A program made the translations under genes and the position numbers. 64,000 nt of DNA from an uncultured Chloroflexia bacterium (GTDB taxonomy: Bacteria; Chloroflexota; Dehalococcoidia; DSTF01; WHTK01). The notes beneath the pieces were generated by a model. That model did no database searches, was not told where the DNA came from, and saw only the letters and a program-made list of their open reading frames with translations. The stretch spans positions 1,229,206 to 1,293,205 of the forward strand of contig CAVQCN010000001.1 in the NCBI GenBank assembly GCA_963711035.1, written 5' to 3'. This document shows positions 6,814 to 54,051 of the stretch, piece after piece. Positions within the stretch are counted from its first letter, which is position 1, and every line of letters begins with the position of its first letter.

Positions 6814-8406
6814 TTAGTGGAGGGGCGTGCCGTTGTAGACCATGTCCGGGTCGCCGTGGAAGAGATCCGTGTAGACGTCGGCCAGGGCGACGATCGGCTT
6901 GTCGGAGGAGATGATCGCGGTGCCGGCGAAGCCGTCCGGCAGCATCGATTCGTTGAACTGGAAGACGGTGAACTCGCGGTTGACCGGCACGGTGTAGGAG
7001 GCGCTGCCGCCCGGCAGGTCGAGGCCGTAGTAGGTGACCGTGACGTTCGCGGTGCTGCCATCCGCGACCATGACGCGAAACCAGCTGTTCCAGCCGTTGC
7101 CGACGCCGGCCTGCGACGCGTAGTTCTTGTTCAGGTCTGGCAGCAGCACCTGGTAGGCCGCGTCCTGGTCGGGCCGCATGCCGCGATAGTCCGTGAAGGT
7201 GTCGTTGAGAAAGGTGCCGCGGTCGACGACGACGGCGATGGGCTCGGTTGAAGATAGATGGGCCGTGCCGATGAAGTCGAAGGGCAGGTTGTCGCCGTCC
7301 GCGAGGCAGTCGGCGTTGTCGAGATCCTGGAAGCAGAGCTTCGACCCCTTCACCTCGAACGTGTTCGTCTTGGTGATGAGGTTGCCGTCCTGGTCGTAGC
7401 CGTCGAAGCGCAGGGTCACGTCGGCGGGCTGGTTCGGGTCCTTGTTCACGATCGTGAAGCGCGTGCTGTAGGAGTTGGACGGCCCGACCTGACGGTCAAC
7501 CTCCGGCAGGACGATCTCCTTGCCGAGGTCGTTGACGTCGAAGCCACGATACGAGCCGAACGAGGCCAGGTCCGAGTTCCAGATGTCGGCGGAGGCCGAG
7601 ATCCACTGCTGGTTCGGCCCCTGCCCGTCGGCGTTCGTCGAGAGGTCAATGCGAACAGAGCCGGTGAATTGGTTCGGCACCGCCATGGTGTCCGGGTCGC
7701 GGAAGATGGAGCCGCGCGGCGGCAGCGGCATGCCGCCGTTAGGGCAGCCGGGCAGCGGCGCGTCCGGCTTGCCGGACGAGGGCAGCTTGTAGGGGTCCCA
7801 CGATATCTCGCTGTCCGTGTAGAAGCTGAGGTAGGTGATGGTCACGCAGGCCGTCACCGTGTCGCTCATGTTCTGGATGACGAAGCGGCCGTTCCAGTCC
7901 TTGTTGGGGCCATCGCGCTTGCCGGTGACGGGCAGGAAGATCTGGTGCGAGCCCGGGCCCGTGTTCAGCGTGTCGCCGGCGATGGAGAAGGTGTCGCCAC
8001 GGCGCACGTCCTTCGCCAGCAGCGCGACCACGGGCTGGTCGGTGGAGATGACGGCTGAGCCCTGGAAGCCGAAGGGCAACGACGTGTTGTCCTTCTGGAA
8101 GAAGGTCCAGCCGCTGCCGGGGTACATGGGCGGGCAGGTCGCCGAGGGGCAGCTATCGGTACCGGCGATGTGGCCCTGGGCGTCGAAGTAGTTGAGCTCG
8201 ACGTTAGCGTCGTCGTCGCCGATGTTCTGGATGCGGATCCAGGAGTTCTCGGTGCCGAAGGAGTAGCCGGAGGTCGCGGATGCCTGGGGGCCGTCACGGC
8301 CCGCGATGGGCATCGCTGCCGCTACGATGGCGACGAGACCCGTGGCTACGAGGAGGGTCTTGAAGAGCGCGTTGGAGTATCTGCGAACTGGGTTCGGAAT
8401 CGACAA
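6814..8406 (-). CDS. Secreted protein of unknown function with four tandem ~110-aa repeats
   Basis: Signal peptide with hydrophobic core LLVATGLVAIVAAAMPIAG. The repeated pattern is [WR]F[RV][IV]xN...A.VT..YY...G...LP.GF.G[ST]A.ISSD.PIVA, seen four times. Confidence 0.6.
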   Translation of the reverse strand: MSIPNPVRRYSNALFKTLLVATGLVAIVAAAMPIAGRDGPQASATSGYSFGTENSWIRIQNIGDDDANVELNYFDAQGHIAGTDSCPSATCPPMYPGSGWTFFQKDNTSLPFGFQGSAVISTDQPVVALLAKDVRRGDTFSIAGDTLNTGPGSHQIFLPVTGKRDGPNKDWNGRFVIQNMSDTVTACVTITYLSFYTDSEISWDPYKLPSSGKPDAPLPGCPNGGMPLPPRGSIFRDPDTMAVPNQFTGSVRIDLSTNADGQGPNQQWISASADIWNSDLASFGSYRGFDVNDLGKEIVLPEVDRQVGPSNSYSTRFTIVNKDPNQPADVTLRFDGYDQDGNLITKTNTFEVKGSKLCFQDLDNADCLADGDNLPFDFIGTAHLSSTEPIAVVVDRGTFLNDTFTDYRGMRPDQDAAYQVLLPDLNKNYASQAGVGNGWNSWFRVMVADGSTANVTVTYYGLDLPGGSASYTVPVNREFTVFQFNESMLPDGFAGTAIISSDKPIVALADVYTDLFHGDPDMVYNGTPLH

Positions 8407-8470
8407 GAGGCCATCTCACTCATCCCCGCTGCAAGGATGATAAGGAGGGCCGCAACCGCGGTCAAACCGG

Positions 8471-8515
8471 CCTCGCGGAAAAGAACGAGGCCGCGTCAAA
8501 CGACGCGGCCTCGTT
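8471..8515 (-). terminator. Rho-independent terminator candidate downstream of the cytochrome c-cupredoxin gene
   Basis: Perfect 14-bp stem AACGAGGCCGCGTC/GACGCGGCCTCGTT with a 4-nt loop, followed on the minus strand by CUUUUCC. Confidence 0.45.
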
Positions 8516-8533: not shown

Positions 8534-9814
8534 CTATTTGACCGTGAAGGTACCGAACATGATGGTCGGGTGGACGTCGCAGCGGAAGAAGTAGGTTCCC
8601 GGTGCCGGCACGTCGAACACCACGTCGTCCAGGCCAGGTCCGGCGAACTGGACGCCGACGCTGCCATCTGCGACCGGCGTCAAGTCGCTCTGACTCTTGT
8701 AGACGGCGATGTTGTGCTTCACACCATCGTCCTTGTTGTCGAGCCGGATGCGGACCTTGCCGCCCGAGTTCACCGTGATGTCCTTCGTGTCGAACTGGAC
8801 GTTCTGGGCGGTGACGTTGACCGTCTGGCCTGTGAACGGCTCCACCGTGGATGGAGTGCCAGCCGGCGCCGGGGCCTGGGCCGTCTGACCGCAGGCCGAC
8901 TGCACGATAGTGGGCGACTCCGGCGGCGCCGGGAAGTTGTACACCATGTCACCGGCGGCGTGCTCGGCTGCCGCCGTGTTGAGCGAGGCCCGCTCCACTT
9001 CGACCGTCGTGCCGTCCTTGTCGATGTTCGTGACCGTCATGCGCTCGTCGCCGATGCGGATGTAGCCCTTGGCGGTGAAGTGCGAGCTGTCCTTGACGTG
9101 GATCGTCGTGTCGTCGGGCGTAATGGCCGCGGTCAACGGCGAAAGCTGATCGACGTGGTCGTCTTGAGCCTTTACAAGATCCCACCGGTTCTGCGTGATC
9201 AGGGTCATGAGCTGGTCGATCTGCTCGAAATTGAGAGGACCGCCGTATTGGTCAGACCAGGTAGGCATGGCCGTGCCGACACGGCCGCAGGTAATCGTGT
9301 TGGTGATGAGCGTTTCGTTCTGGGTAAGCGTGGCGGAGGCGAAGAGCTGAATCGCCGCTCCCGAGAGGTGCGATTCGGCGGTGGTCCGATCGACGGCGCG
9401 CTTCACCGTGAGGGTGTTGTCGCTGACAGCAGTGACGTCCATGCGCTCGTTGTCGATGAGGATTAGGGCGCCGGCCTTGAACTTGGAGCCGTCAGTGACG
9501 TCGACAGTGGTGGCACTCGCAACCATGTCTGACGTGGTCGTCTGCTTGCTGTCGCTGAAGCCCTGCAGGGTGGGACGGTTGAGCGCCGGGGCGGCCGGGA
9601 GACGGCCGCCGGCCGCTCCACCTTGGCCGACGTCGCCGTGACAGAGACGGCAGTTCTGAGCAAAGATGATGGCGCCGCGCTCGGCCTGGGCCTGCTGGAA
9701 GTCCGCCTCGGCGCTGGTCTGGCGATTGGGGAGCCATGCGCCGTAGATGCCGACCGCGATCAGCATGAACATGAGCAGCGTCGCCATGATCAGGACCTGC
9801 TTACGCGTGTTCAT
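8534..9814 (-). CDS. Membrane-anchored monoheme cytochrome c fused to a C-terminal type-1 copper (cupredoxin) domain; putative electron-exit subunit of the bc complex
   Basis: N-terminal TM helix. CRLCH heme-binding motif at aa 55-59. Two ~55-aa internal repeats, aa 104-156 and 238-291. C-terminal HNIAVY...FFRCDVHPTIMF gives a His/Cys/His/Met copper ligand set. Confidence 0.75.
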   Translation of the reverse strand: MNTRKQVLIMATLLMFMLIAVGIYGAWLPNRQTSAEADFQQAQAERGAIIFAQNCRLCHGDVGQGGAAGGRLPAAPALNRPTLQGFSDSKQTTTSDMVASATTVDVTDGSKFKAGALILIDNERMDVTAVSDNTLTVKRAVDRTTAESHLSGAAIQLFASATLTQNETLITNTITCGRVGTAMPTWSDQYGGPLNFEQIDQLMTLITQNRWDLVKAQDDHVDQLSPLTAAITPDDTTIHVKDSSHFTAKGYIRIGDERMTVTNIDKDGTTVEVERASLNTAAAEHAAGDMVYNFPAPPESPTIVQSACGQTAQAPAPAGTPSTVEPFTGQTVNVTAQNVQFDTKDITVNSGGKVRIRLDNKDDGVKHNIAVYKSQSDLTPVADGSVGVQFAGPGLDDVVFDVPAPGTYFFRCDVHPTIMFGTFTVK

Positions 9815-9862: not shown

Positions 9863-10903
9863 CTAACCTTCTGCTTGTACTGCAAAGCTTGCGTTATCGG
9901 TCGTGCCCTTCGTGATTGCACCGGTGTCGACGCTGATGTTGCCGCCGTTGATGGTGAGCTTCATGTGGTCCATCGAACGCGGGGCCGGTCCGTATACACG
10001 GTGGCCAGCGTCGTCGTATGTCGAGCCGTGGCAGGGGCAGCGGAACCAGCCCTGGCGGTCCTTGCCGTCGAGGCCTTTCCACGTGAACGTCGGGTTCCAC
10101 GGGACGGTGCATCCCAGGTGAGGGCACTTCCACCACAGTGCTAGATAGCCAGCCTTACCCGTTTCGGGGTCGCTGCGCTTGGCCTGCTCTTCAGTCAGGT
10201 TGACCAGCCAGAAGTGGCCGGCAACGATCTGCGTTTTGGTGCCAGGAGGGAACTGGTCCACGCTGCCAGCTTGCACGACGCTACCGAAGCCGGTGACGCC
10301 GCGCGGGTAGAGCATGTCGACCAGGGTGCCGCCGAAGGCGGCCAGACCGGCCAGCAGACCAGTCCAGAACGTGATGCGAAGCAGGCCGCGGCGAGAGATC
10401 TCGCGCCGCTCGACGCGCTCAATAGCAATGGCGGCGCCGGCGGCCGATTGCGCGGCCAGCGTCTGGTTGGAAACAGGCTCAATGAGCTGTCCGCCGGGGC
10501 CGACGATGGCAACGGCCTGCTCTTGCGGCGCCGCTTCCATCTCGCGCTGGATGTTGCTCATCCAGGCGCTACCGGAGCCGATCGCGAGCGGTACGGCGGC
10601 GATGAACGCGCCATACTCCCAGTCGTAGATCAGGCCGGCGGCGATGCCGACGATACCGAGAGCCAGGACGACAGGCCAGTAGCTCGGCCCGGGAGCCTGC
10701 TCCTCTTCCTCGTGTTCCGGTTCCACTGCCGGCGGGGGCCCGGCAACTTCGCGTGCCTCGAGGATCCAGCCGAGCAGGGCGATGATCACGACGCAGGCAC
10801 TGGCGTACGAAAGCGAACTCGTGACGGGCTGAATAATGGTCACAACGATCATCGCCAGAGCGAGACCAAAGATCGCAGGCCACCAACTCAAGCGCTCATT
10901 CAT
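9863..10903 (-). CDS. Rieske [2Fe-2S] subunit with three N-terminal TM helices and an internal twin-arginine motif
   Basis: CPHLGCTV...CPCHGSTY Rieske boxes. EISRRGLLRITFW lies just before TM3. Confidence 0.9.
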   Translation of the reverse strand: MNERLSWWPAIFGLALAMIVVTIIQPVTSSLSYASACVVIIALLGWILEAREVAGPPPAVEPEHEEEEQAPGPSYWPVVLALGIVGIAAGLIYDWEYGAFIAAVPLAIGSGSAWMSNIQREMEAAPQEQAVAIVGPGGQLIEPVSNQTLAAQSAAGAAIAIERVERREISRRGLLRITFWTGLLAGLAAFGGTLVDMLYPRGVTGFGSVVQAGSVDQFPPGTKTQIVAGHFWLVNLTEEQAKRSDPETGKAGYLALWWKCPHLGCTVPWNPTFTWKGLDGKDRQGWFRCPCHGSTYDDAGHRVYGPAPRSMDHMKLTINGGNISVDTGAITKGTTDNASFAVQAEG

Positions 10904-10965: not shown

Positions 10966-12006
10966 TTACCCGTCAATGTGAGGCACATGCCACGGCCAGA
11001 CTAGCTCCTGCCCCTGACCTCGGAAGGCTGAACCGATGATCGTCATCGTCCAGTAGGCGGCGATGAAGCCACTGAAGAGACAGAGCAGTACGTCGCGCCG
11101 TGTGCGTATCCAGCGGATGCGCCACAGGAGGTAAACCAGGAAGGCGGGTAGCGCGGTCATGATGATCGTCGGGATCAGGATCTCGACCAGGAAGGCCGGG
11201 AAGTTCAGGTTGAGGTCGTAGGGCAGAAGGCCCGTGAACCAGCCCGGCAGATTCTGGTACCACTGTGGTGGGTGACCGCCGTGGTGGCCGAGAAAGTGCC
11301 AGGGCCAGGAAGTGCCGTTGAGTGGCAGAGGAATCTGGCTGAAGTCCTGAGGCCAGTTGAGCCGGCCGTCGTGACCGGAGCCCTGGAGCAGTGGCACCAG
11401 ACCTCCCAGGTCGGTGCTCCATTTCCAGTCGGTCTGGATCGAGCGCGTGTTGGGGCTGAGGACCAGATCCCAGACGGCCTGGATGAAGCCGACATGGGGC
11501 AGCCAGCTGGGGCGGTCTGCACCTGTCGGCCAGTTACTGCCGGTGATTTTCTGGTACGCGCTGACATGCTCGCTGAAATCCCAGAGGATGAGGAGCGTGG
11601 TCGTGACGGCCGAAAAAACGGCGGAGAAGATCGAAATTCTGACGGCGTTTGCCGTCCCGAACCAGGTGCCCTGGCCCTCCTTGCTGCGGTCGAAGTACGG
11701 GACGGCTGCCAGGAGGATCAAGAAGACCGTCGGCACGATGACACCGGCGAGGGCCGGGTTCATGTGCAGCAGCAACTCCTGCAGGTTGAGGAAGTACCAC
11801 GGAGCCTTGGACGGGTTCGGCGTGACGTTGCCGTTGGCCCGGTTGATCAACGGCGCGTTCGCGATCGCCGAGATGATCGTGAAGCTGAAGGTGAAGAGGA
11901 CGGCACAGATGAACTCGACAAATACGAGGTCCGGCCAAACGAGGAGTTCCTCTTCTCGTTCGCGGCGGGGTCGTACCTGTGAGGGCGAAGAAGTAACTGC
12001 TGCCAA
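10966..12006 (-). CDS. Cytochrome b C-terminal half / subunit IV (PetD-like) with a long Trp-rich C-terminal extension
   Basis: PWYFLNLQELLLHMNPALAGVIVPTVFLILLAAVPYFD is PetD-like. About 190 extra residues carry additional TM helices. Confidence 0.8.
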   Translation of the reverse strand: MAAVTSSPSQVRPRREREEELLVWPDLVFVEFICAVLFTFSFTIISAIANAPLINRANGNVTPNPSKAPWYFLNLQELLLHMNPALAGVIVPTVFLILLAAVPYFDRSKEGQGTWFGTANAVRISIFSAVFSAVTTTLLILWDFSEHVSAYQKITGSNWPTGADRPSWLPHVGFIQAVWDLVLSPNTRSIQTDWKWSTDLGGLVPLLQGSGHDGRLNWPQDFSQIPLPLNGTSWPWHFLGHHGGHPPQWYQNLPGWFTGLLPYDLNLNFPAFLVEILIPTIIMTALPAFLVYLLWRIRWIRTRRDVLLCLFSGFIAAYWTMTIIGSAFRGQGQELVWPWHVPHIDG

Positions 12007-12029: not shown

Positions 12030-12800
12030 CTAGAGTGGGCGCGCCATGCCACCGTCGCGGCGGATGCGCCAGAAATGCACAGCCATGAAGACGGCAGCGA
12101 CGAGTGGTAAGGCGATCACATGTAAGGTGTAGAACCGAATCAGGGCATTCGGGCCGACCGAGAAGCCGCCGCGCATGACGAACACGACAGAGTCGCCGAG
12201 CACCGGGGCCGAGCCCACCATGTTCGTGCCGACCGTGATGGCCCACAGAGCCAGTTGGTCCCACGGCAGGAGGTAGCCGGTGAAGCTGAGGAGAAGGGTG
12301 AGGATCAGCAGGATCACACCTACGACCCAGTTGAACTCACGCGGCGGCTTGTAAGCGCCGGTGTAGAAGACACGCATCATGTGGAGCAGGACGGTGAGTA
12401 CCATGCCGTGCGCCATCCAGCGGTGCATGTTGCGGATCAGGGAGCCGTAGCGCACGTTCGTCTCGAGCGCGGCGATATCCGTGTAGGCGTGCTCTGTCGA
12501 GGGCACGTAGTAGAACATCAGCAGCACGCCGGTCACGGTGAGGCCCAGGAAGAGGAAGAAGCTCAACCCTCCCAGGCAGTAGGTATGCGTGATCTTGACG
12601 TGCGTCTTGTGGATGCGCGTGGGGTGGAGGTGAAGGAAGACGTTGGTAGCGACGACCAGCATCTGGTTACGGGGCGTGCTGGGGTAGCCGCTACGGAAGA
12701 TCGACTGCCAGACGTAGTTGTGAAAGATCTTGTCGTAGATGTTGCCGAGGAGCCCTGGACCTTTGGGCCGTTCTGTCCGGGATCGATTGCCTACGGCCAT
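12030..12800 (-). CDS. Cytochrome b6-type subunit (N-terminal cytochrome b domain, split form)
   Basis: Four TM helices with paired heme-ligand His residues (HLHPTRIH, HRWMAHGMVL, TLHVIALP, HFWRIR). About 256 aa, typical of b6. Confidence 0.9.
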   Translation of the reverse strand: MAVGNRSRTERPKGPGLLGNIYDKIFHNYVWQSIFRSGYPSTPRNQMLVVATNVFLHLHPTRIHKTHVKITHTYCLGGLSFFLFLGLTVTGVLLMFYYVPSTEHAYTDIAALETNVRYGSLIRNMHRWMAHGMVLTVLLHMMRVFYTGAYKPPREFNWVVGVILLILTLLLSFTGYLLPWDQLALWAITVGTNMVGSAPVLGDSVVFVMRGGFSVGPNALIRFYTLHVIALPLVAAVFMAVHFWRIRRDGGMARPL

Positions 12801-12815: not shown

Positions 12816-12968
12816 TTAGCGTGACCACCAGTTGCCGAAAGCGACCATGATGGCCAGGCTTATAGCAATGGTGCCAAATACGAGAACCAGTTCAGCAAAG
12901 TCTGCAGAGACCTTGCTGAAAAAGAGTTGATAGGCCTCCCAACCATGGAACATCAGAACAGGATTCAT
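12816..12968 (-). CDS. Small single-TM protein immediately upstream of cytochrome b6; possible accessory subunit
   Basis: MNPVLMFHGWEAYQLFFSKVSADFAELVLVFGTIAISLAIMVAFGNWWSR. A GGAGCGGGGGG RBS-like stretch lies about 12 nt upstream. The gene is tightly coupled to petB-like. Confidence 0.35.
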   Translation of the reverse strand: MNPVLMFHGWEAYQLFFSKVSADFAELVLVFGTIAISLAIMVAFGNWWSR

Positions 12969-13143
12969 GTCCGTGTTCGCCCCCCCGCTCCTCGGTTTCC
13001 GTTGCTCAGGGAATCTTTGTGATGGCCTTAGCAAGCCGCAATCTAGCATCGGCCCCCATTAGAGTCAACCGAGCCTTGGTCGAAATTCGGTGCCCTGAAA
13101 GAGGTTTCGCAGATAGGAATGGGGGCTTGTTCGAGGGCCCGAG

Positions 13144-23189: not shown

Positions 23190-24608
<1,419 letters not shown>

Positions 24609-24659
24609 CTACTCCCACGGCCCGCCAGGCCGCGGGCATTGGTTCTCTGGTTTGCGGAC

Positions 24660-25538
24660 TTACCCTGCCGCCTGGGACATTGCCTCGACGCCGCCGGTGA
24701 TGTCCAGCAGCTCCTTCGTGATCTGCTCCTGGCGCACCTTGTTGCGCACCAGGGTCAGCTCCATGATCATCTCCTGTGCCGCGTCGGTTGCGTTACGCAT
24801 CGCCACCATCTGGGCCGACTGGTAGCTGGCCTTCATCTCGATGACAGCGCGGTAGACCTGCACCTCAACATAGCGAGGCATCAACGTCTCCAAGAGCTGC
24901 GCAGCGCTGGGCTCGTAGATGTACTCAACCGTCCTCTTCTCGTCGCCTGCTGGCGGCGTCACGGGTAGCAGCTCCAGCTCCTCGGGTCGCTGTAGGACCG
25001 TGTTGATGAAGCGCGGGTAGACGATGATGACGCTGTCGACTTCGCCGTTCGTGTACGCGTCCATGATCAGCCGCGAGATCGGGCTTACCTCGTCGTAACC
25101 GGGATAGTCAGTCAGGTTCGTGAACTGGCCGATGATCTCGACGCCGCTGCGGCGGAAGAAATCGAACCCTTTGCGGCCGACGCAGATCATCTTGCTGCCG
25201 GGATGAGCGGCGACGTAGCCGCCGGCCAGGCGAATCAGGTTGGTGTTGAGGCCGCCGCAAAGGCCGCGATCGGGTGTGATCAGCAACACGGCCGGCGTAT
25301 TCACCTCGCGCCGCTCGAGGAGCGGGTGCATGCTGCCTTCTTCACCGCCGGTCTGCGGGATGTCCTCCACCACGTCGGCCAGCAGCGACTGTATCTCCTC
25401 CGCGTAGGGGCGTTGGGCCAGCGCCATCTGCTGGGCGCGGCGCATCTTGGAGCCGGCGACGAGCGACATGGCGCGCGTCGTCTTGGCCGTCGACTGGATC
25501 GAACGGATGCGGCGGTTAATCTGACGTAGCGTTGGCAT
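24660..25538 (-). CDS. atpG: ATP synthase F1 gamma subunit
   Basis: MPTLRQINRRIRSIQSTAKTTRAMSLVA N-terminus. Operon position. Confidence 0.9.
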   Translation of the reverse strand: MPTLRQINRRIRSIQSTAKTTRAMSLVAGSKMRRAQQMALAQRPYAEEIQSLLADVVEDIPQTGGEEGSMHPLLERREVNTPAVLLITPDRGLCGGLNTNLIRLAGGYVAAHPGSKMICVGRKGFDFFRRSGVEIIGQFTNLTDYPGYDEVSPISRLIMDAYTNGEVDSVIIVYPRFINTVLQRPEELELLPVTPPAGDEKRTVEYIYEPSAAQLLETLMPRYVEVQVYRAVIEMKASYQSAQMVAMRNATDAAQEMIMELTLVRNKVRQEQITKELLDITGGVEAMSQAAG

Positions 25539-25678
25539 CTAGCTTCGGCTCCTGGCCCTGCTTTGCATCGCTCTCGCGCTGCTCCGCCCCGATCTCAAAG
25601 TGAAGGTGGGGGGACACCCCTCACGGCCTCCCGCCAGGGGCGGCACCCATGGACCCCGATCCTTGTTTACGCTGATCA

Positions 25679-27190
<1,512 letters not shown>

Positions 27191-27242
27191 TGTGGCGTCC
27201 TCCGCTTGCTTAGATAGATTCGAATCTCGGGGGGAGCGGCCG

Positions 27243-27782
27243 TTAGACCGCACCCACCAGGCTTTCGCGCAGCGCGTCTAGCCGTGCCTTCGTGCTGGAA
27301 TCGATCAGCCGGTCACCGATCTGGAGCACGAGCCCACCGATCAGGTCAGGATCGACCTCTGTTTCGAGAATAACCTGACCGCCGGTCTGCTCGCGCAGGC
27401 GCTGTTCCAGGACCTGCCGCTCCGTGTCGCTCATGGCGACGGCGGTGACGGCACGAGCCCGGCTGATGCCCTGCTCTTCCTCGGTCAGACGCTTGAACTC
27501 GGAGGCGATGTCCGCCGCGAGTGGCGTGCGCCCCTTCTTCACCAACAAGCGCGCCAGGTTGAGCGGCAACGGGTCGAGGTCCGCCAGGGCTGTCTCGACC
27601 AGACGCTGCTTGGAATCGACCGGCACGCGTGTATTGGTCAGGACGCTCGCAACCTCGGGATCGCTCATGAACTCGGCGATCTGGTCGAGAGCTGCCGACC
27701 ATTCAGACGCAGTGCCCTTCTCGTCGGCGATCTCGAACGCCGCGAGCGCGTAGCGCTTTGCCGCCAGATCTACTGTTGCCAA
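27243..27782 (-). CDS. atpH: ATP synthase delta (OSCP) subunit
   Basis: Length, composition and operon position match OSCP. Confidence 0.85.
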
Positions 27783-27791
27783 CCCCGTCCC

Positions 27792-28304
27792 CTAGTTTTC
27801 ACGGAAAGAAGACTCCGCCAGCGCCTCGTCGATGAGACGCTGGTGCGCCGAGCGGTCCAGGGACTGACCGATGACCTTCTCCGCAGCGGAGATGGTCAGA
27901 TCGGCAAACTCACGCCGCAGCTGGGCGATTGCCGTGTCGCGCTCGAGCTGAATCTCGGCTCGGGCGCGCTCCAGCATCGCCTCTTGCTGCTGCTGGGCCT
28001 GCTGGCGCGCATCCTCCTGGATGCGCTGAGAGACCTGCTGCGCCTGCGCCACGATCGTCTGGCCCTCGCGTCGCGCCTCTTCGATCTGCGCCTGCGCTGC
28101 CGTGTTCGCTTCGGCTGCCTGTTCGCGACCGCGCTCGGCGGCGGAGAGGCCTTCGCGAATCCGCTCGCGCCGTTGCTCGAGCATGCGCAGGACCGGCTTG
28201 TACACGAGGAGGCGCATCACGATCAGCAGGAACGTGAAGTTCACTACTTGCGCGATCAAGACCGGTATGTTGATACCGATATCTGTGATGCCTAGGAAAA
28301 CCAT
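27792..28304 (-). CDS. atpF: ATP synthase Fo b subunit
   Basis: Single N-terminal TM followed by a long charged coiled-coil. Confidence 0.8.
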   Translation of the reverse strand: MVFLGITDIGINIPVLIAQVVNFTFLLIVMRLLVYKPVLRMLEQRRERIREGLSAAERGREQAAEANTAAQAQIEEARREGQTIVAQAQQVSQRIQEDARQQAQQQQEAMLERARAEIQLERDTAIAQLRREFADLTISAAEKVIGQSLDRSAHQRLIDEALAESSFREN

Positions 28305-28333
28305 CCGTTAGCCTCTCGGTCCGGTTTGTGGTC

Positions 28334-28597
<264 letters not shown>

Positions 28598-28642
28598 TCA
28601 AAATGCTCTGCAGCCCTTCCGCGGGCAAGTAACCGTAACGCT

Positions 28643-29707
28643 TCAGTGGCTTTCTGCCCCTTGTTGATGACCGGCCTCCTCCTCGTGGCCGTGATCGTCA
28701 TGAGACGTGATGGCCAGGATGGCGAAGACCAGGGTAAGCGCGCCGAAGATGAACGCCTGGACGGCGCCCACGAACAGCTCCAGACCGTAGAACACCACCA
28801 CGATGGGTGAGGCTACAGCGAGCAGGAAGGTCATGACCAGGAGAACGATCTCGCCCGCCAGCATGTTGCCAAACAGACGGAAGGAGAAGCTGAGAAGGCG
28901 GGCGACCTCCGCGACAAACTCGAGAATGCCGACGAAGAAATCGATTGGCCCCTTGAAATTGAGGAACTTGCTGCCGTATTTCAAAACGCCCTGGGCCTGA
29001 ATACCCCACAGCTCGACGAAGAACGCCGAGACGAGCGCAAAGGATAACGGCGTCATCAGATCCGTGTTGATGCCTCGGAAGTAGGGGTGCAGCACGCCGA
29101 TCTTCTCGTTGCCGCCGCTGGCATGTTCGGACGTGGCTTGGTCGATCGCGTCCTGGCGACAGGCATCGCCCTCGGTGCCCGTCGCGCAATCGCTGCCTTC
29201 GAGGTCAACGACCTTGGCTCCGGGATTGATGAGAGAGATGCCGCCCGAGTCCTTGAAGACGAGCGCCTCATTGTGGTAGCCGCTCTCTTGCGCCGTCAGC
29301 GGAACGTATTCGCCGAACGAGTTGAAGATCGGCGTCAGCGACATCCAGTTTGCGAACGTGATGTAGATAAAGAACGTGGCGATGAGGGGGAAGAATTTGC
29401 GGCCCCAGTGCTCTCCCGCCAGGCCAACGACGAAGTCGTAGATAACCTCGATCGTCGCTTCGAACAGGTTGTAGAACCCGCTGGGGATCAGCGACATCTT
29501 GCGCAGCGCGAAGAAGCACAGGATGAGTAGCAGCGCCATGATGACCCAGGCGGAAAACAGCGAGTTGAGGATATCGAGAGGACCGATGCTGCCGAGGCTC
29601 TCGCCGCGAATCTCGACGAGCGGCTTCGGCGGCTTGATGACGAGAAGGGAAACGGCAATGGCGGCGACGGTGTAGGCCAGGCCGCCGAGTATGATGAGCC
29701 GCTTCAA
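28643..29707 (-). CDS. atpB: ATP synthase Fo a subunit with a ~70-aa periplasmic-loop insertion and a His-rich C-terminal tail
   Basis: SFSFRLFGNMLAGE conserved Arg motif. The insertion is NSFGEYVPLTAQES...CATGTEGDACRQD.... The tail is SHDDHGHEEEAGHQQGAESH. Confidence 0.85.
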   Translation of the reverse strand: MKRLIILGGLAYTVAAIAVSLLVIKPPKPLVEIRGESLGSIGPLDILNSLFSAWVIMALLLILCFFALRKMSLIPSGFYNLFEATIEVIYDFVVGLAGEHWGRKFFPLIATFFIYITFANWMSLTPIFNSFGEYVPLTAQESGYHNEALVFKDSGGISLINPGAKVVDLEGSDCATGTEGDACRQDAIDQATSEHASGGNEKIGVLHPYFRGINTDLMTPLSFALVSAFFVELWGIQAQGVLKYGSKFLNFKGPIDFFVGILEFVAEVARLLSFSFRLFGNMLAGEIVLLVMTFLLAVASPIVVVFYGLELFVGAVQAFIFGALTLVFAILAITSHDDHGHEEEAGHQQGAESH

Positions 29708-50345: not shown

Positions 50346-51227
50346 CTAGAGCGCTGCCAGCACCTTGCGGGTCGAGACGACGTGGCGGTCGACCTTGAGC
50401 TCCTTCGGGTCGATGCCGAGCGCCAGGCCGATGAGCTGCGGTAGGTGCAGGATCGGCACCTCCAGCCCGTTGACCGAGGCGTACTTCGCCGCGTCGGGCT
50501 GCTGCGCGTCCAGGTTGAGGTGGCAGAGCGGGCAGGGCGTGACCAGGCAGTCGGCGCCCTCTTCCTGAGCCTCACTGAGGTGGTTCGCGGCCATCTGAAG
50601 CGAGTTCTTCTTGTTGATGGTCAGGATCGGGAAGCCGCAGCACTTGTCCTGGCCCTCGTAGGTGACGAGGGTGCACCCCAGGGCCTCGATGACGTACTCG
50701 AGGTACTTGTCGCGGTCCGGGTGCTCGTCGAAGCCGAGGACCGGCTCCGGCCGGATGATGTAGCAGCCGTAGAAGGGGCCCGCCTTGAGGCCGGTCAGCG
50801 GCTTGCGCACCATGCTCTTCAGCTTGTCGAGGCCGATGTCTTCCACCAGCACCCAGAGGAAGTTCTTGACCTCGAGTCCCTGCTCGGCGTCGTAGTAGAG
50901 GCCCTCGTCGGCCAGGGCCGCGTTGACCTTCTCGGCCAGTTCGGGATGGTTGCGCATGCGGTTCTGGGCCATGCTCTGCACGCCCTGACAGGTGCTGCAG
51001 ATGTTGATCAGGGGCAGGTCCAGGCGCTGCGCCATGGCGAAGTTGCGCGCGTTGAGCGCGTCCGCCGTCTCCATGCTGTGCTCGCTGATTACGCCGGCGC
51101 CGGTGCAGTTGCCGTCGTACAGCTCTTCGAGCTCGATGCCGAGCTCCGGCGCTACGCGCACCATGGAGGCGTACAGTTCCGGCGCCGCGCCCTTGGAGAC
51201 GCAACCCGGCCAGAAAGCGTATCGCAT
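50346..51227 (-). CDS. Succinate dehydrogenase / fumarate reductase CCG-domain subunit (SdhE/HdrB-like). The start was trimmed to the ATG that overlaps the sdhB stop.
   Basis: Two cysteine-rich CCG motifs (CSTCQG...; CCGFP...CPLC). MRYAFWPGC start. Confidence 0.8.
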   Translation of the reverse strand: MRYAFWPGCVSKGAAPELYASMVRVAPELGIELEELYDGNCTGAGVISEHSMETADALNARNFAMAQRLDLPLINICSTCQGVQSMAQNRMRNHPELAEKVNAALADEGLYYDAEQGLEVKNFLWVLVEDIGLDKLKSMVRKPLTGLKAGPFYGCYIIRPEPVLGFDEHPDRDKYLEYVIEALGCTLVTYEGQDKCCGFPILTINKKNSLQMAANHLSEAQEEGADCLVTPCPLCHLNLDAQQPDAAKYASVNGLEVPILHLPQLIGLALGIDPKELKVDRHVVSTRKVLAAL

Positions 51228-52201
51228 TAGTGACCCCCTACGGCCTGCTTGTGTTCGAACCGCTCGAAGCTCTTGAAGATGCGCTTGACGTGCTTGATGC
51301 CGCCGATCGGCTTGTGGATCGGGTTTGGCATCTTGCCCGACTTGATCATGCGTAGACCCACCGGGATGTCGGATATCTGGCCGATCAGGTTGAAGCGGCC
51401 GTGCGTGTACACGGGCAGCCGGAACTCGTCCAGCCGGCCGCTGTGCTCCACCAGGTTGACGAAGGCGAGCGTGTGACGGCTGCCGTAGTTGTGGGTGATA
51501 CCGTCGTGGACCGCCTCGGCGCGCAGCTTGAGGATCTGGTCCATCGGTTTGACGTCCTTGGGGCAAACCTGCACGCACATGTTGCAGCGGGTGCAGTCCC
51601 ACATGCCGCTCGGGTCGCTGTACTCGCGCAGGCGGGGCAGGTCTTCGGCGTCTCGCGGGTCGCCGACGAAGCGCCAGGCTTTGGCCAGCGCCGCGGGCCC
51701 GACGAAGGTGCGGTCGACTTCGAGGACGGTGCAGTCCATGACGCAGGCGCCGCACATGATGCAGCCCATGGGCTCCATGAGCGCCGACATCGCCTCGTTG
51801 GGCACGACGTACTCGCGCTCCGGCACGGGGCCGCTGGGCTGCAGCCAGGGCTTGACGGATCGCACCTTGTCCCAGAAGGGCGCCATATCGACGACGAGAT
51901 CCTTGATCACCGGCAAGTTGCCGCCGGGCTCGACCGTAATCTCGTCAGCTTCGTCGGCGATGCTGCTCACCTGTGTCTTGCAGGCCAGGCGCGCCGTACC
52001 GTTGATATGCATGGCGCAGGAGCCGCAGATGGCGCTGCGACAGGAGCAGCGCAGCGACAGGGTGCCGTCATGGTACTCGCGCACCTCGATCAGGCTGTCG
52101 AGGACGGTAGCGCTTTCCGGCATGTCGACCGTGTACTGGCGGTAGCCGTCTTCGACGAGCCCGTCAGGGTCGAAGCGTTTGACTTTGAGCTTGACCTCCA
52201 T
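51227..52201 (-). CDS. sdhB: Succinate dehydrogenase iron-sulfur subunit
   Basis: CSCRSAICGSCAM 2Fe-2S motif and CIMCGACVMDC / CTRCNMCVQVCP 4Fe-4S/3Fe-4S motifs. Confidence 0.9.
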   Translation of the reverse strand: MEVKLKVKRFDPDGLVEDGYRQYTVDMPESATVLDSLIEVREYHDGTLSLRCSCRSAICGSCAMHINGTARLACKTQVSSIADEADEITVEPGGNLPVIKDLVVDMAPFWDKVRSVKPWLQPSGPVPEREYVVPNEAMSALMEPMGCIMCGACVMDCTVLEVDRTFVGPAALAKAWRFVGDPRDAEDLPRLREYSDPSGMWDCTRCNMCVQVCPKDVKPMDQILKLRAEAVHDGITHNYGSRHTLAFVNLVEHSGRLDEFRLPVYTHGRFNLIGQISDIPVGLRMIKSGKMPNPIHKPIGGIKHVKRIFKSFERFEHKQAVGGH

Positions 52202-53880: not shown

Positions 53881-54051
53881 GTATGGGACCTCCCGGGGGT
53901 CGCCAGCGCGGGATCGTCGGTTGTTGGCTCGTGAGCCAGCCCCCATGACTCTGAACCAAAAGCGATGTTAGCGCTGACCCCAGATACGAGCAAGGAAACC
54001 GATCCAATTTTCATGTCTGGTTCACATGCGCTGACGAAGGACTTCGGCTCT

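What the first reader, a model, noticed from the sequence alone, without database searches (positions are those of the whole stretch)
8534..9814. Cytochrome c fused to a cupredoxin, with an internal tandem duplication, as the terminal gene of a bc-complex operon
The last gene of the Rieske/cytochrome b operon encodes a membrane-anchored protein with three parts. First comes a CxxCH monoheme cytochrome c domain at aa 55-59. Second come two ~55-aa internal repeats, VDVTDGSKFKAGALILIDNERMDVT... and IHVKDSSHFTAKGYIRIGDERMTVT.... Third comes a C-terminal blue-copper domain, HNIAVY...FFRCDVHPTIMF, with the canonical His/Cys/His/Met ligand set. In characterised bc1/b6f complexes the electron-exit subunit is cytochrome c1, cytochrome f or a diheme cytochrome c, and the soluble acceptor (plastocyanin, auracyanin, cytochrome c) is a separate protein. 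A covalent fusion of the heme-c subunit to a cupredoxin would build the mobile carrier into the complex. I do not recognise this architecture as a described subunit type.
Basis: partly seen in the sequence, partly recalled or inferred. Interest (0 to 1): 0.7.

Follow-up and report, generated by a model that had tools for sequence, protein, structure and literature searches.

The report
Heme-plus-copper exit subunit of bc complex
The last gene of a respiratory Rieske/cytochrome b operon in an uncultured Dehalococcoidia bacterium encodes one membrane-anchored protein that carries both a heme c domain and a blue-copper domain, so the electron carrier that is normally a separate protein appears to be built into the complex, a design I could not find described in the papers I searched.

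Summary
The ORF at 8534..9814 (-) is real, uninterrupted and 426 aa long. It is the last gene of a cyt b6 / subunit IV / Rieske operon. It has an N-terminal TM anchor, one class I cytochrome c domain (C55xxCH59, axial M183), two copies of a ~70-aa beta module and a C-terminal type-1 copper cupredoxin (H367, C412, H415, M419). The heme and copper ligands are invariant in 27 homologs.

One correction: the two repeats are not tandem. Repeat 1 is nested inside the cytochrome c fold. Repeat 2 follows it. The module is homologous to a small domain of phage tail proteins and has no redox residues.

The operon order is conserved in all related Chloroflexota loci with enough flank. At the same operon position, sister lineages keep the anchored cytochrome c and a Cys-containing linker. 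They vary the middle (0-8 beta modules, or four LysM) and end in a cupredoxin or a second cytochrome c.

I read this as a hard-wired Rieske -> heme c -> Cu -> oxidase exit. It is analogous to, but not a member of, actinobacterial diheme QcrC. Function is inferred, not shown. I found no published description. Cultured Tepidiforma flava carries a sister form. Novelty: new variant of a known kind. Interest: 0.6.

The parts
9728..9814 (-). N-terminal signal-anchor: conserved MNTRKQ motif plus one TM helix (aa 1-29)
   Evidence: Single hydrophobic segment at aa 3-29. AF2 models a helix at 3-27. M1-Q6 are nearly invariant across homologs. The N-terminus matches that of actinobacterial QcrC, profile positions 4-67.
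9554..9709 (-). Cytochrome c domain, N-terminal half (aa ~36-87), with C55-R-L-C58-H59 heme-attachment motif at 9638..9652
   Evidence: PF13442 and PF00034 match only the first part of their profiles. C55, C58 and H59 are invariant in 27 homologs.
9335..9553 (-). Beta module 1 (aa ~88-160), nested inside the cytochrome c fold
   Evidence: pLDDT 87-96, all-beta. Its removal restores a full-length PF00034 match. Short relatives (L020/P0130) have ~20 aa at this position. The module profile hits phage minor tail protein 8vjh at E=1.8e-13.
9167..9334 (-). Cytochrome c domain, C-terminal half (aa ~161-216), with invariant C176-G-R and axial-ligand M183-P184
   Evidence: T173, C176, G177, R178, G180, M183, P184 and W186 are invariant. 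The spliced sequence matches PF00034 positions 1-86 of 90.
8927..9151 (-). Beta module 2 (aa ~222-296), paralog of module 1
   Evidence: BLASTP vs module 1: 34% identity, E=2e-10. pLDDT ~80-93. This is where single-module relatives carry their module.
8828..8926 (-). Linker (aa 297-329) with invariant C308-G-Q (codon 8891..8893), followed by a ~21-residue Pro/Ala/Thr-rich tether
   Evidence: C308, G309 and Q310 are invariant. pLDDT is below 50 at 298-314. Every variant has exactly one linker Cys plus one pre-Met Cys.
8537..8827 (-). Type-1 copper cupredoxin domain (aa 330-426): ligands H367, C412, H415, M419 (C-x2-H-x3-M loop)
   Evidence: PF13473 and PF00127 score above their cut-offs. Foldseek top hits are auracyanin A/B and Roseiflexus auracyanin. 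Profile vs PDB: auracyanin A at E=1.3e-7. The ligands align to auracyanin and plastocyanin ligands and are invariant.
9863..10903 (-). Rieske iron-sulfur protein (346 aa) with CPHLGC / CPCHGSTY boxes, a Tat-like RRGLLR anchor and a ~125-aa 4-TM N-terminal extension
   Evidence: PF00355 33.2 bits. Syntenic in all loci.
10966..12006 (-). Subunit IV-like protein (346 aa) with Qo motif APWY
   Evidence: PF00032 26 bits. KAPWYF read. The APWY clade includes Chloroflexi (PMC4122944).
12030..12800 (-). Cytochrome b6-type subunit (256 aa) with its single Cys75 in a YCLGG motif, the position I recall as the heme c_i-binding Cys of b6-type cytochromes
   Evidence: PF00033 160.5 bits. NCBIfam PRK03735 cytochrome b6 209.6 bits and ExtP 298 bits. 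Cys75 is the only Cys, in THTYCLGG.
12816..12968 (-). Small conserved single-TM ORF (~50 aa from M28 of the listed 77-aa ORF) directly upstream of cyt b: a possible small subunit
   Evidence: tblastn finds it at the same position in most related loci. One TM at aa 47-75. No Pfam match.
8490..8504 (-). Terminator-like hairpin ~30 nt after the stop codon of the target gene
   Evidence: Consensus scan. Weak evidence, because the count in the region equals the shuffled expectation.
13040..13068 (-). Sigma-70-like promoter match upstream of the small ORF and cyt b
   Evidence: Consensus scan, 9 of 12 with TG extension. Weak evidence.

Best explanation
The gene encodes the c-type, electron-exit subunit of a b6-type Rieske/cytochrome b complex of an aerobic Dehalococcoidia (Chloroflexota) bacterium.

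Proposed layout:
- A single N-terminal TM helix holds the protein on the outer face of the membrane.
- The class I heme c domain (His59/Met183 ligation) plays the role of cytochrome c1 or f and takes electrons from the Rieske cluster.
- A type-1 copper cupredoxin hangs from a ~21-residue Pro/Ala/Thr-rich tether. It takes the electron from the heme and delivers it to a terminal acceptor, most likely the CuA site of a heme-copper oxidase encoded elsewhere.
- The carrier that is normally a separate protein (auracyanin, plastocyanin, halocyanin or cytochrome c) is therefore part of the complex. This makes sense for a single-membrane cell that cannot retain a soluble carrier.
- The two beta modules are non-redox decorations of phage-tail type. 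One is looped out of the cytochrome c fold. The other is looped out between the cytochrome and the linker.
- The two invariant extra cysteines (C176 next to the axial-Met loop, C308 in the linker) probably form a disulfide. It would pin the start of the tether to the heme domain and keep heme and copper within electron-transfer range whatever is inserted between them.

Shown: the domain composition, ligand conservation, nesting, synteny, and the heme-for-copper module swap in relatives.
Inferred: cofactor loading, complex membership, the disulfide, the direction of electron flow and the identity of the acceptor.
For: (1) The ORF is intact and conserved: 337 or more homologs at 90% clustering. 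At 50% clustering there are 61 clusters at E<=1e-30 and 657 at E<=1e-10.
(2) Heme motif C55/C58/H59, M183-P184 and copper ligands H367/C412/H415/M419 are invariant in 27 sequences at 50-70% identity.
(3) The cytochrome c profile match becomes full-length when module 1 is excised.
(4) The cupredoxin is modelled confidently. Its best PDB matches are auracyanins, the Chloroflexota blue-copper carriers. The ligand columns align with auracyanin and plastocyanin ligands.
(5) The order small ORF - cyt b - subunit IV - Rieske - this gene is kept in all loci with flank, including cultured Tepidiforma flava. No other c-type cytochrome gene is in the operon.
(6) At the same operon position relatives carry cyt c + linker + cupredoxin with no inserts (L020, L036). 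Others carry cyt c + linker + a second cyt c (L025-27, L032), cyt c + 4 LysM + cupredoxin (L030, P0296), or cyt c + up to 8 beta modules + cupredoxin. So the C-terminal redox module is interchangeable between heme and copper.
(7) Every variant has exactly one pre-Met Cys and one linker Cys, 65 to ~430 residues apart. The triheme relative L037 lacks both. By my reading of the sequences printed, the tether after the linker Cys is about 20-32 residues in each variant.
(8) The N-terminal anchor plus first heme motif gives the best NCBIfam hit to actinobacterial QcrC. QcrC's second heme domain carries electrons to the oxidase (PMC8361435).
(9) Copper proteins are accepted acceptors of archaeal Rieske/cyt b complexes (PMC4122944; PMC3509893).
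Against: - There are no experimental data on heme or copper content, co-purification or activity.
- No terminal oxidase gene lies in the 64-kb window or within ~8 kb of the operon in 54 related loci, so the acceptor is unidentified.
- AF2 confidence is low exactly at the heme loops and linker (62-74, 176-191, 298-314), and I could not read coordinates. The heme-copper distance, the copper-site geometry and C176-C308 proximity are therefore untested.
- The cyt b belongs to the APWY clade and scores as 'ExtP' in NCBIfam (298 vs cut-off 290). The physiological role of that group is not settled, so oxygen respiration is an assumption.
- Promoter and terminator matches are no more frequent than in shuffled sequence.
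Confidence: 0.62

Rival explanations
1. The cupredoxin does not swing as a tethered carrier. It is a fixed wire inside an obligate complex III-IV supercomplex, docked permanently between heme c and the oxidase CuA site, as the QcrC cyt cc head is in mycobacteria. The beta modules and the Rieske N-terminal 4-TM extension would be docking or scaffold elements.
For: - Actinobacteria have no free cytochrome c, use QcrC's second domain in an obligate supercomplex, and are monoderm (PMC8361435). Chloroflexota are reported as single-membrane cells (PMC3971608).
- The Rieske N-terminal extension co-occurs only with this subfamily's nested-module cytochrome.
- That extension gives PF12270 (actinobacterial oxidase subunit IV, CtaF) as top Pfam hit in 8 of 9 orthologs. 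One scores above the cut-off (28.8 vs 26.9 bits).
Against: - A profile of the extension finds no CtaF chain among solved supercomplex structures, even at E<=10, so the CtaF resemblance may be generic TM-helix similarity.
- The Pro/Ala/Thr-rich, low-pLDDT tether looks flexible rather than fixed.
- No oxidase genes are linked to the operon.
Confidence: 0.2
2. The complex does not feed an oxygen reductase. The heme-copper subunit links the quinol pool to another extracytoplasmic partner (for example copper nitrite reductase or N2O reductase, or a metal or metalloid substrate at the cell surface), or it works in the reverse direction as an electron entry point.
For: - The cyt b passes the NCBIfam ExtP threshold (selenite/tellurite-reduction operon cytochrome of Geobacter).
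- The cyt b belongs to the APWY clade, which Kao and Hunte link to special environmental adaptation.
- No oxidase is encoded nearby.
- Sister forms carry cell-wall-binding LysM arrays or up to 8 beta modules, which could reach into the envelope.
- From general knowledge, cupredoxins are the usual donors to NirK and NosZ.
Against: - The window carries ATP synthase-like and succinate dehydrogenase-like ORFs (functions judged from the N-terminal sequences alone, not scanned), which would be typical of a respirer.
- The sister form is in aerobic cultured Tepidiforma.
- None of the Ext porin-cytochrome genes or nir/nos motifs were seen near the operon.
- A single copper centre at the end of a long spacer could not receive electrons from the heme unless it stays near it. 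The conserved Cys pair argues for proximity.
Confidence: 0.12
3. The N-terminal helix is a cleaved signal peptide. The protein would then be a free, secreted or wall-bound two-centre electron carrier that is merely co-transcribed with the Rieske/cyt b genes and is not a subunit.
For: - There is only one hydrophobic segment, and it is at the extreme N-terminus.
- In the haloarchaeal cluster the co-encoded halocyanin is a separate protein.
Against: - The N-terminal MNTRKQ motif is nearly invariant and the TM helix is retained across all variants. That is unusual for a cleaved leader.
- I saw no obvious Ala-x-Ala cleavage site after the helix.
- The operon would otherwise lack any c1/f-equivalent acceptor for the Rieske cluster.
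- A soluble carrier would be lost from a single-membrane cell.
Confidence: 0.06

Closest known systems
Actinobacterial QcrC (diheme cytochrome cc subunit of the bcc complex)
   Same: It is a membrane-anchored c-type subunit of a Rieske/cyt b complex in a monoderm bacterium. Its first redox domain receives electrons from the Rieske protein. Its second, C-terminal redox domain replaces a free carrier and donates to the oxidase (PMC8361435). It gives the best NCBIfam hit for the N-terminus (NF050122, E=4.4e-7) and weak PDB hits to QcrC chains. Sister Chloroflexota lineages do have a diheme form at this position.
   Different: Here the second centre is type-1 copper in a cupredoxin, not heme c. 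There is only one CxxCH. The score is far below the family cut-off (29.5 vs 200 bits). Here a single N-terminal TM helix is the only hydrophobic segment. Beta modules are inserted. The partner cytochrome b is split b6-type with the c_i-position cysteine, not the fused QcrB.
Haloarchaeal halocyanin-Rieske/cyt b gene cluster and Sulfolobus SoxM/sulfocyanin
   Same: A type-1 copper protein encoded with, or assembled into, a Rieske/cyt b complex serves as its high-potential acceptor and as donor to the oxidase. The haloarchaeal cluster also has a split cytochrome b (PMC3509893; PMC4122944).
   Different: In archaea the copper protein replaces cytochrome c altogether and is a separate polypeptide. 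Here heme c and copper are in series on one chain, in a bacterium.
Auracyanins A/B of Chloroflexus and Roseiflexus
   Same: They give the best structural and sequence matches of the C-terminal domain (Foldseek E 1e-7 to 2e-6; profile E=1.3e-7). They have the same His/Cys/His/Met ligand set, the same HN[IW] first-ligand motif and come from the same phylum. They are membrane-associated carriers.
   Different: Auracyanins are stand-alone proteins that work with alternative complex III, not with a Rieske/cyt b complex (PMC10873879 abstract). Identity is only ~22-23%. The ligand loop here is shorter: C-x2-H-x3-M, against the longer Cys-to-Met loop in the aligned auracyanin A sequence.
caa3-type oxidase subunit II, membrane-anchored cytochrome cy, and three-domain copper nitrite reductases with tethered cytochrome c or cupredoxin
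   Same: They follow the same design principle: the redox partner or carrier is covalently tethered to, or anchored beside, the enzyme it serves (cy: PMC8361435; tethered CuNiR: PMC13324648 and PMC6278305). From general knowledge, caa3 subunit II also combines a cupredoxin fold and a cytochrome c domain on one chain.
   Different: In caa3 the cupredoxin is the binuclear CuA site of the oxidase and the fusion is on the acceptor enzyme. In CuNiRs the tethered domain feeds a nitrite reductase. None of them is a subunit of a Rieske/cyt b complex.
Small beta domain of phage tail proteins (minor tail protein 8vjh, tip attachment protein J 8rk3, K1 depolymerase 'rider' domain PF24149)
   Same: The two internal repeats are homologous to it. 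The profile gives E=1.8e-13 and 4.8e-7 against these solved chains, with the conserved E-R...R-G...T-x-A-x-x-H motif.
   Different: Here the module is placed in a respiratory cytochrome, once inside the cytochrome c fold. Pfam PF24149 scores stay below its cut-off (16-19 vs 27 bits).

Membership tests
Class I c-type cytochrome (Pfam PF00034 / PF13442) | CxxCH heme-attachment motif near the N-terminus of the domain | tested here: met
   C55-R-L-C58-H59 is the only CxxCH. It is invariant in 27 homologs.
Class I c-type cytochrome (Pfam PF00034 / PF13442) | Sixth-ligand Met in the C-terminal part of the fold, and a full-length domain match | tested here: met
   M183-P184 is invariant. The native sequence matches only profile positions 1-43 of 90. 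With aa 92-163 removed it matches 1-86 of 90 at 28.8 bits, above the 21.3 cut-off.
Class I c-type cytochrome (Pfam PF00034 / PF13442) | Covalently bound heme in the mature protein | not testable with these tools
   This needs heme staining, mass spectrometry or spectroscopy.
Type-1 (blue) copper cupredoxin (PF00127 / PF13473) | Cupredoxin beta-sandwich fold | tested here: met
   PF13473 scores 30.1 bits (cut-off 27) and PF00127 26.6 bits (cut-off 21.2). AF2 block pLDDT is mostly 77-95 for aa 330-426, with one block at 69. Foldseek gives probability 1.00 to auracyanins, amicyanin and plastocyanin-type proteins, with target TM 0.58-0.78.
Type-1 (blue) copper cupredoxin (PF00127 / PF13473) | His ... 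Cys-x(n)-His-x(n)-Met ligand set, with a single Cys (not the two-Cys CuA motif) | tested here: met
   H367, C412, H415 and M419 are invariant. HNI aligns to auracyanin HNI/HNW, and C-x2-H-x3-M aligns to the Cys-His-Met loops of plastocyanin and auracyanin. The domain has only one Cys.
Type-1 (blue) copper cupredoxin (PF00127 / PF13473) | Trigonal copper-site geometry and bound Cu(II) with the blue-copper spectrum | not testable with these tools
   Model coordinates could not be read, so ligand distances were not measured. EPR and UV-vis are needed.
b6-type Rieske/cytochrome b complex (operon context) | Split cytochrome b (b6 + subunit IV) and a Rieske protein with CxH...CxxH boxes, encoded together | tested here: met
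   PF00033 160.5 bits, PF00032 26 bits, PF00355 33.2 bits. CPHLGC and CPCHGS boxes, the single Cys75 in a YCLGG motif and the APWY Qo motif are present. Synteny holds in every locus with sufficient flank.
b6-type Rieske/cytochrome b complex (operon context) | The target protein physically assembles with cyt b and Rieske | not testable with these tools
   This is inferred only from conserved adjacency and from the absence of another c-type cytochrome gene in the operon.
Actinobacterial QcrC (NCBIfam NF050122) | Two CxxCH heme c domains and a score at or above 200 bits | tested here: not met
   There is one CxxCH. The score is 29.5 bits over aa 7-70 only. The protein is not a member. It is only a functional analogue.
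Cytochrome c1 / cytochrome f | Match to the cytochrome c1 or cytochrome f families | tested here: not met
   No such family appears among the Pfam or NCBIfam hits at E<=0.1.
Auracyanin | Stand-alone blue-copper carrier with the longer auracyanin-type ligand loop | tested here: not met
   Auracyanin is the best structural relative, but here the domain is fused. Identity is 22-23%, and the loop is C-x2-H-x3-M, shorter than in the aligned auracyanin A sequence.
Phage-tail small beta domain (Pfam PF24149 K1-lyase_Rider and relatives) | Significant sequence match of the repeat unit | tested here: inconclusive
   Pfam PF24149 is below its cut-off (16-19 bits vs 27). A profile of 22 repeat copies does hit phage minor tail protein 8vjh at E=1.8e-13 (two copies) and 8rk3 at 4.8e-7. 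Homology to the phage-tail module is therefore supported, but membership of that particular Pfam family is not.

The most novel reading that the evidence does not exclude
Soil and aquifer Dehalococcoidia, and Chloroflexota more widely, run a fully hard-wired quinol-to-oxidase chain. The exit subunit of the Rieske/b6 complex carries heme c and a disulfide-latched, tethered type-1 copper domain in series. Evolution has repeatedly swapped that terminal module between copper and heme, a genetic fixed-form counterpart of the plastocyanin/cytochrome c6 switch. It has also looped non-redox modules (phage-tail beta domains, LysM) out of the cytochrome without changing the tether. In this subfamily the complex would additionally form an obligate supercomplex with the oxidase through the Rieske protein's extra 4-TM module.
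Probability: 0.25. Interest if true: 0.8.

Novelty: new variant of a known kind. Interest (0 to 1): 0.6.

Why it matters
Rieske/cytochrome b complexes are central to nearly all respiratory and photosynthetic chains. The review I checked gives cytochrome c1 as the c-type subunit of bc1 complexes and a diheme cytochrome c as its mycobacterial equivalent, and cytochrome f fills that role in b6f complexes. In archaea the acceptor is a separate copper protein.

A subunit with heme c and blue copper in series on one chain would add another solution. It would show that the tethered-carrier logic of actinobacterial cyt cc also evolved with copper. It would also give a natural series of heme-for-copper module swaps and insert-length variants for studying intramolecular electron transfer and carrier tethering.

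The family is abundant in uncultured Dehalococcoidia from soils and sediments, whose respiration is poorly characterised. Source annotations name it only 'plastocyanin', 'hypothetical' or 'LysM protein'. Metabolic reconstructions could therefore mislabel this subunit and conclude that no carrier exists.

Because cultured Tepidiforma flava has a sister form, the idea can be tested directly.

Tried and rejected
- The first genome-collection scan, with patterns from the single protein, found no relative. It succeeded only with alignment-derived patterns.
- An exact-sequence contig look-up for the window protein found no record, so the source genome beyond the window could not be examined.
- Motif scans for heme-copper oxidase subunits I and II, NirK and NosZ found nothing in the window (oxidase motifs only) or in 54 related loci. 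The electron acceptor stays unidentified. The regex motifs are strict and may miss divergent oxidases.
- Is the Rieske N-terminal extension a CtaF-like oxidase subunit IV module? Pfam signals are consistent but weak. There is no hit to solved CtaF chains. I left this as inconclusive.
- The 530-aa downstream ORF is often syntenic but has no Pfam, NCBIfam or PDB relatives. It is absent from several loci and is preceded by its own promoter-like site. I did not count it as part of the system.
- I considered reading the operon as a Geobacter-type ExtPQ selenite/tellurite system, because cyt b scores 298 vs the 290 cut-off. I rejected this as a functional label, because none of the other Ext genes are present. 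The similarity fits shared membership of the APWY cyt b clade.
- CuA instead of type-1 copper is rejected: the domain has a single Cys and a C-x2-H-x3-M loop.
- 'Two genes with a missed stop' is rejected.
- Seven literature searches and reading of four reviews or phylogenomic papers gave no description of the architecture. The library lacks most subscription-journal papers, including the earlier phylogenomic paper by the authors of the paper read, so absence is not proof.
- The copper-site geometry and C176-C308 distance in the AF2 model could not be measured, because model coordinates are not exposed.
I did not pursue it, because the duplication is old (34% amino-acid identity).
Full report

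The window has a single ORF at 8534..9814 on the minus strand, 426 aa, with no internal stop. It aligns end to end with 26 homologs of 423-516 aa at 50-70% identity, so it is one gene. It contains one CxxCH, at C55-H59.

Pfam finds a cupredoxin at aa 330-426: PF13473 at 30.1 bits (cut-off 27) and PF00127 at 26.6 bits (cut-off 21.2). It also finds the start of a class I cytochrome c at aa 42-95. The two quoted repeats are homologous (34% identity, E=2e-10).

Directly upstream on the same strand lie:
- a Rieske protein (9863..10903);
- a subunit IV-like protein (10966..12006);
- a cytochrome b6-like protein (12030..12800).

A terminator-like hairpin follows the stop codon and a promoter-like site precedes cyt b. 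These consensus matches are no more frequent than in shuffled sequence.

**2. What had to be corrected**

The cytochrome c profile matched only its first ~43 of 90 positions. The alignment showed an invariant T-C-G-R-x-G-x-x-M-P-x-W block at aa 173-186, after the first repeat. When I removed aa 92-163 in silico, the PF00034 match extended to profile positions 1-86 of 90 and the score rose from 25.6 to 28.8 bits. Relatives without repeats have about 20 residues at that point (L020/P0130).

So repeat 1 is an insertion nested inside the cytochrome c fold. M183 is the likely sixth heme ligand. The second half of the cytochrome separates the two repeats, so they are not tandem.

The AF2 model has a mean pLDDT of 78.8. 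It shows two confident all-beta modules (block pLDDT mostly 79-96) and a confident cupredoxin. Confidence is low only at the heme loops and the linker.

**3. What the repeat module is**

A profile of 22 copies hits two solved phage tail proteins: minor tail protein 8vjh (E=1.8e-13, two copies) and tip attachment protein J 8rk3 (E=4.8e-7). It hits the K1 depolymerase more weakly. All share an E-R...R-G...T-x-A-x-x-H signature. Pfam PF24149 (K1-lyase 'rider' domain) stays below threshold. The module has no Cys or metal-site pattern beyond a fold-conserved His. I treat it as a structural decoration.

**4. The copper site**

H367, C412, H415 and M419 are invariant. The best structural matches of the model are auracyanin A, auracyanin B and Roseiflexus auracyanin. 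Auracyanin A is also the best sequence-profile match in the PDB (E=1.3e-7).

In pairwise alignments, HNI aligns with the HNI/HNW of auracyanins. Y-F-F-R-C-D-V-H-P-T-I-M aligns with the Cys-His-Met loops of auracyanin and plastocyanin. With one Cys and a C-x2-H-x3-M loop this is a type-1 site, not CuA. I could not measure the site geometry, because model coordinates are not exposed.

**5. Context in other genomes**

A scan of GTDB species genomes returned 53 loci. Loci L001-L037 are from Chloroflexota, mostly Dehalococcoidia MAGs. The weaker matches beyond that include other phyla.

tblastn with the window's operon proteins shows the order small ORF - cyt b - subunit IV - Rieske - this gene in every locus with enough flank. 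The 530-aa downstream ORF is present in about half of them. An independent metagenome contig shows the same order with Pfam labels and no oxidase nearby.

The exhaustive search of 1.84 billion representatives gives 61 clusters at E<=1e-30 and 657 at E<=1e-10.

**6. A modular family**

At the same operon position I found these forms:
- cyt c + linker + cupredoxin with no inserts (277-308 aa: L020, L021, L028, L036);
- cyt c + linker + a second cyt c, a diheme form (L025, L026, L027, L032; two Pfam cytochrome c stretches);
- cyt c + four LysM + cupredoxin (L030, L031, L033; LysM E=5e-36);
- cyt c + six to eight beta modules + cupredoxin (L022, P0126, P0131, P0141);
- three-module forms (L011/P0003).

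Among the 60 best representatives, the commonest anchored form has one beta module and one cupredoxin. The nested insertion is confined to the window's subfamily (P0103, P0121, P0122).

The interchange of cupredoxin and cytochrome c at the C-terminus is the strongest argument that this position holds an electron-carrier module.

**7. The two extra cysteines**

Every variant has exactly one Cys just before the axial-Met loop (C176 here) and one Cys in the linker (C308 here, usually C-G-Q). This holds whether 65 or ~430 residues separate them. A triheme relative that lacks the first also lacks the second. By my reading of the sequences printed, the Pro/Ala/Thr-rich stretch from the linker Cys to the first strand of the C-terminal domain is about 20-32 residues in every variant.

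I infer a disulfide that pins the start of the tether to the heme domain. The variable modules would then be looped-out decorations rather than spacers, and heme and copper would stay within electron-transfer range. This is inference and has not been tested.

**8. The partner subunits**

- Cytochrome b has a single Cys, in a T-H-T-Y-C-L-G-G motif. From general knowledge this is the position of the heme c_i ligand of b6-type cytochromes.
- Subunit IV carries the Qo motif APWY. That places it in the 'APWY clade' that includes Chloroflexi (PMC4122944).
- The Rieske protein has CPHLGC and CPCHGSTY boxes, a Tat-like RRGLLR anchor and a ~125-aa 4-TM N-terminal extension.
- That extension occurs only in operons with the nested-module cytochrome. 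It gives PF12270 (actinobacterial oxidase subunit IV) as top hit in 8 of 9 orthologs, near the threshold. A profile of it finds no solved CtaF chain, so this lead is inconclusive.

**9. Mechanism proposed**

From established knowledge of bc and b6f complexes, the Rieske head domain delivers one electron from quinol oxidation to a membrane-anchored high-potential c-type centre (PMC7908018). Here that centre is the heme c domain.

The electron then passes to the tethered type-1 copper and on to a terminal acceptor, most likely an oxidase CuA site. This parallels the actinobacterial diheme QcrC, whose ectodomain carries electrons to the oxidase in organisms that lack any free cytochrome c (PMC8361435). 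It also parallels archaeal complexes that use halocyanin or sulfocyanin.

Chloroflexota are described as single-membrane cells (PMC3971608). That gives a rationale for anchoring or fusing the carrier.

- Shown: composition, conservation, nesting, synteny and module swapping.
- Inferred: cofactor loading, assembly, the disulfide, the direction of flow and the acceptor.

No oxidase gene lies in the window or within ~8 kb of the operon in 54 loci.

**10. Comparison with what is known, and novelty**

The protein is not a member of QcrC (one heme; 29.5 vs 200 bits). It is not cytochrome c1 or f (no match). It is not an auracyanin in the strict sense, because it is fused, 22-23% identical and has a shorter ligand loop.

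It works like QcrC with copper in place of the second heme. It combines the bacterial (cytochrome c) and archaeal (cupredoxin) solutions in one chain.

Seven full-text searches and four papers read found no description of such a subunit. The library is incomplete, so prior mention elsewhere cannot be excluded. Sources annotate members as 'plastocyanin', 'mono/diheme cytochrome c family protein', 'hypothetical' or 'LysM peptidoglycan-binding domain-containing protein'.

I rate it a new variant of a known kind.

**11. Tractability**

The LysM sister form is encoded in the complete genome of cultured Tepidiforma flava (P0296, CP115149.1). It sits in the same operon and keeps HNI...CDYHPPM and both extra cysteines. 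The predictions can therefore be tested by standard membrane biochemistry.

Noticed in passing
window 10529..10903 (-), N-terminal ~125 aa of the Rieske gene 9863..10903: The Rieske protein carries an extra 4-TM N-terminal module with an invariant EPEHEEEE loop, ahead of its Tat-like anchor. The module occurs only in operons that have the nested-beta-module cytochrome. It weakly resembles actinobacterial oxidase subunit IV (PF12270: top hit in 8 of 9 orthologs, 14-28.8 bits vs cut-off 26.9). It has no match to solved CtaF chains.
   Followed up: partly
window 12816..12968 (-): A small (~50 aa) single-TM ORF lies directly upstream of cyt b. It is conserved at the same position in most related loci and has no Pfam match. 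It may be a small subunit of the complex. The listed 77-aa ORF probably starts at its M28, because a promoter-like -10 element overlaps the longer start.
   Followed up: partly
window 6814..8406 (-): A 530-aa protein with one N-terminal TM or signal segment has no Pfam, NCBIfam or PDB relatives. It lies immediately downstream of the operon in about half of the related loci (63-69% identity) and is followed by glycosyltransferase genes. It may be a cell-surface protein. It has its own promoter-like site at 8437..8465.
   Followed up: partly
window 12030..12800 (-) and 10966..12006 (-): The cyt b passes NCBIfam's equivalog cut-off for 'ExtP' (selenite/tellurite-reduction operon cytochrome of Geobacter; 298 vs 290 bits), and subunit IV hits ExtQ, although no other Ext genes are present. 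If annotation pipelines apply this cut-off, they would probably mislabel this respiratory cyt b. Subunit IV is also unusually long (346 aa), with a ~120-aa Trp/Pro/His-rich insert between TM segments.
   Followed up: partly
L030, L031, L033 (8001..~9860) and L055 10001..11851 (Tepidiforma flava): Sister forms of the subunit carry four LysM peptidoglycan-binding domains between the cytochrome c and the cupredoxin. This suggests that the respiratory complex is tied to the cell wall in Tepidiformaceae. These proteins are annotated only as LysM proteins.
   Followed up: partly
L022 8001..10031; proteins P0126, P0131, P0141, P0148, P0150: Some relatives have six to eight phage-tail-type beta modules between the cytochrome c and a cupredoxin with a different ligand loop (C-N-[VI]-P-x-H-Y-x-x-G-M, as in auracyanin-like proteins). 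Proteins made only of this beta module (16 copies in P0155), and giant proteins of 1700-4200 aa that contain it, also exist.
   Followed up: no
L016 8237..9313 and L019 8407..8754: In two MAG loci the gene appears broken into shorter ORFs that lack the N-terminal heme motif. This is likely a frameshift from assembly error, or pseudogenisation.
   Followed up: no
proteins P0135, P0136, P0143, P0144, P0162-P0165, P0170: The closest cupredoxin-only relatives are proteins with two to four tandem copies of a very similar domain (…GVPHNFAVY…YFFRCDVHPxxMxG…) and lipoprotein-like or signal N-termini. The cupredoxin module therefore also circulates as multi-copper-domain arrays outside the bc operon.
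   Followed up: no
window 23190..29707 (-) and 51227..53946 (-): Judged from the N-terminal sequences of the ORFs alone, and not scanned against any family library, the window also holds what looks like an F1Fo ATP synthase operon and a succinate dehydrogenase/fumarate reductase flavoprotein plus iron-sulfur pair. That would be consistent with a respiratory lifestyle. No oxidase motifs were found anywhere in the 64 kb.
   Followed up: no
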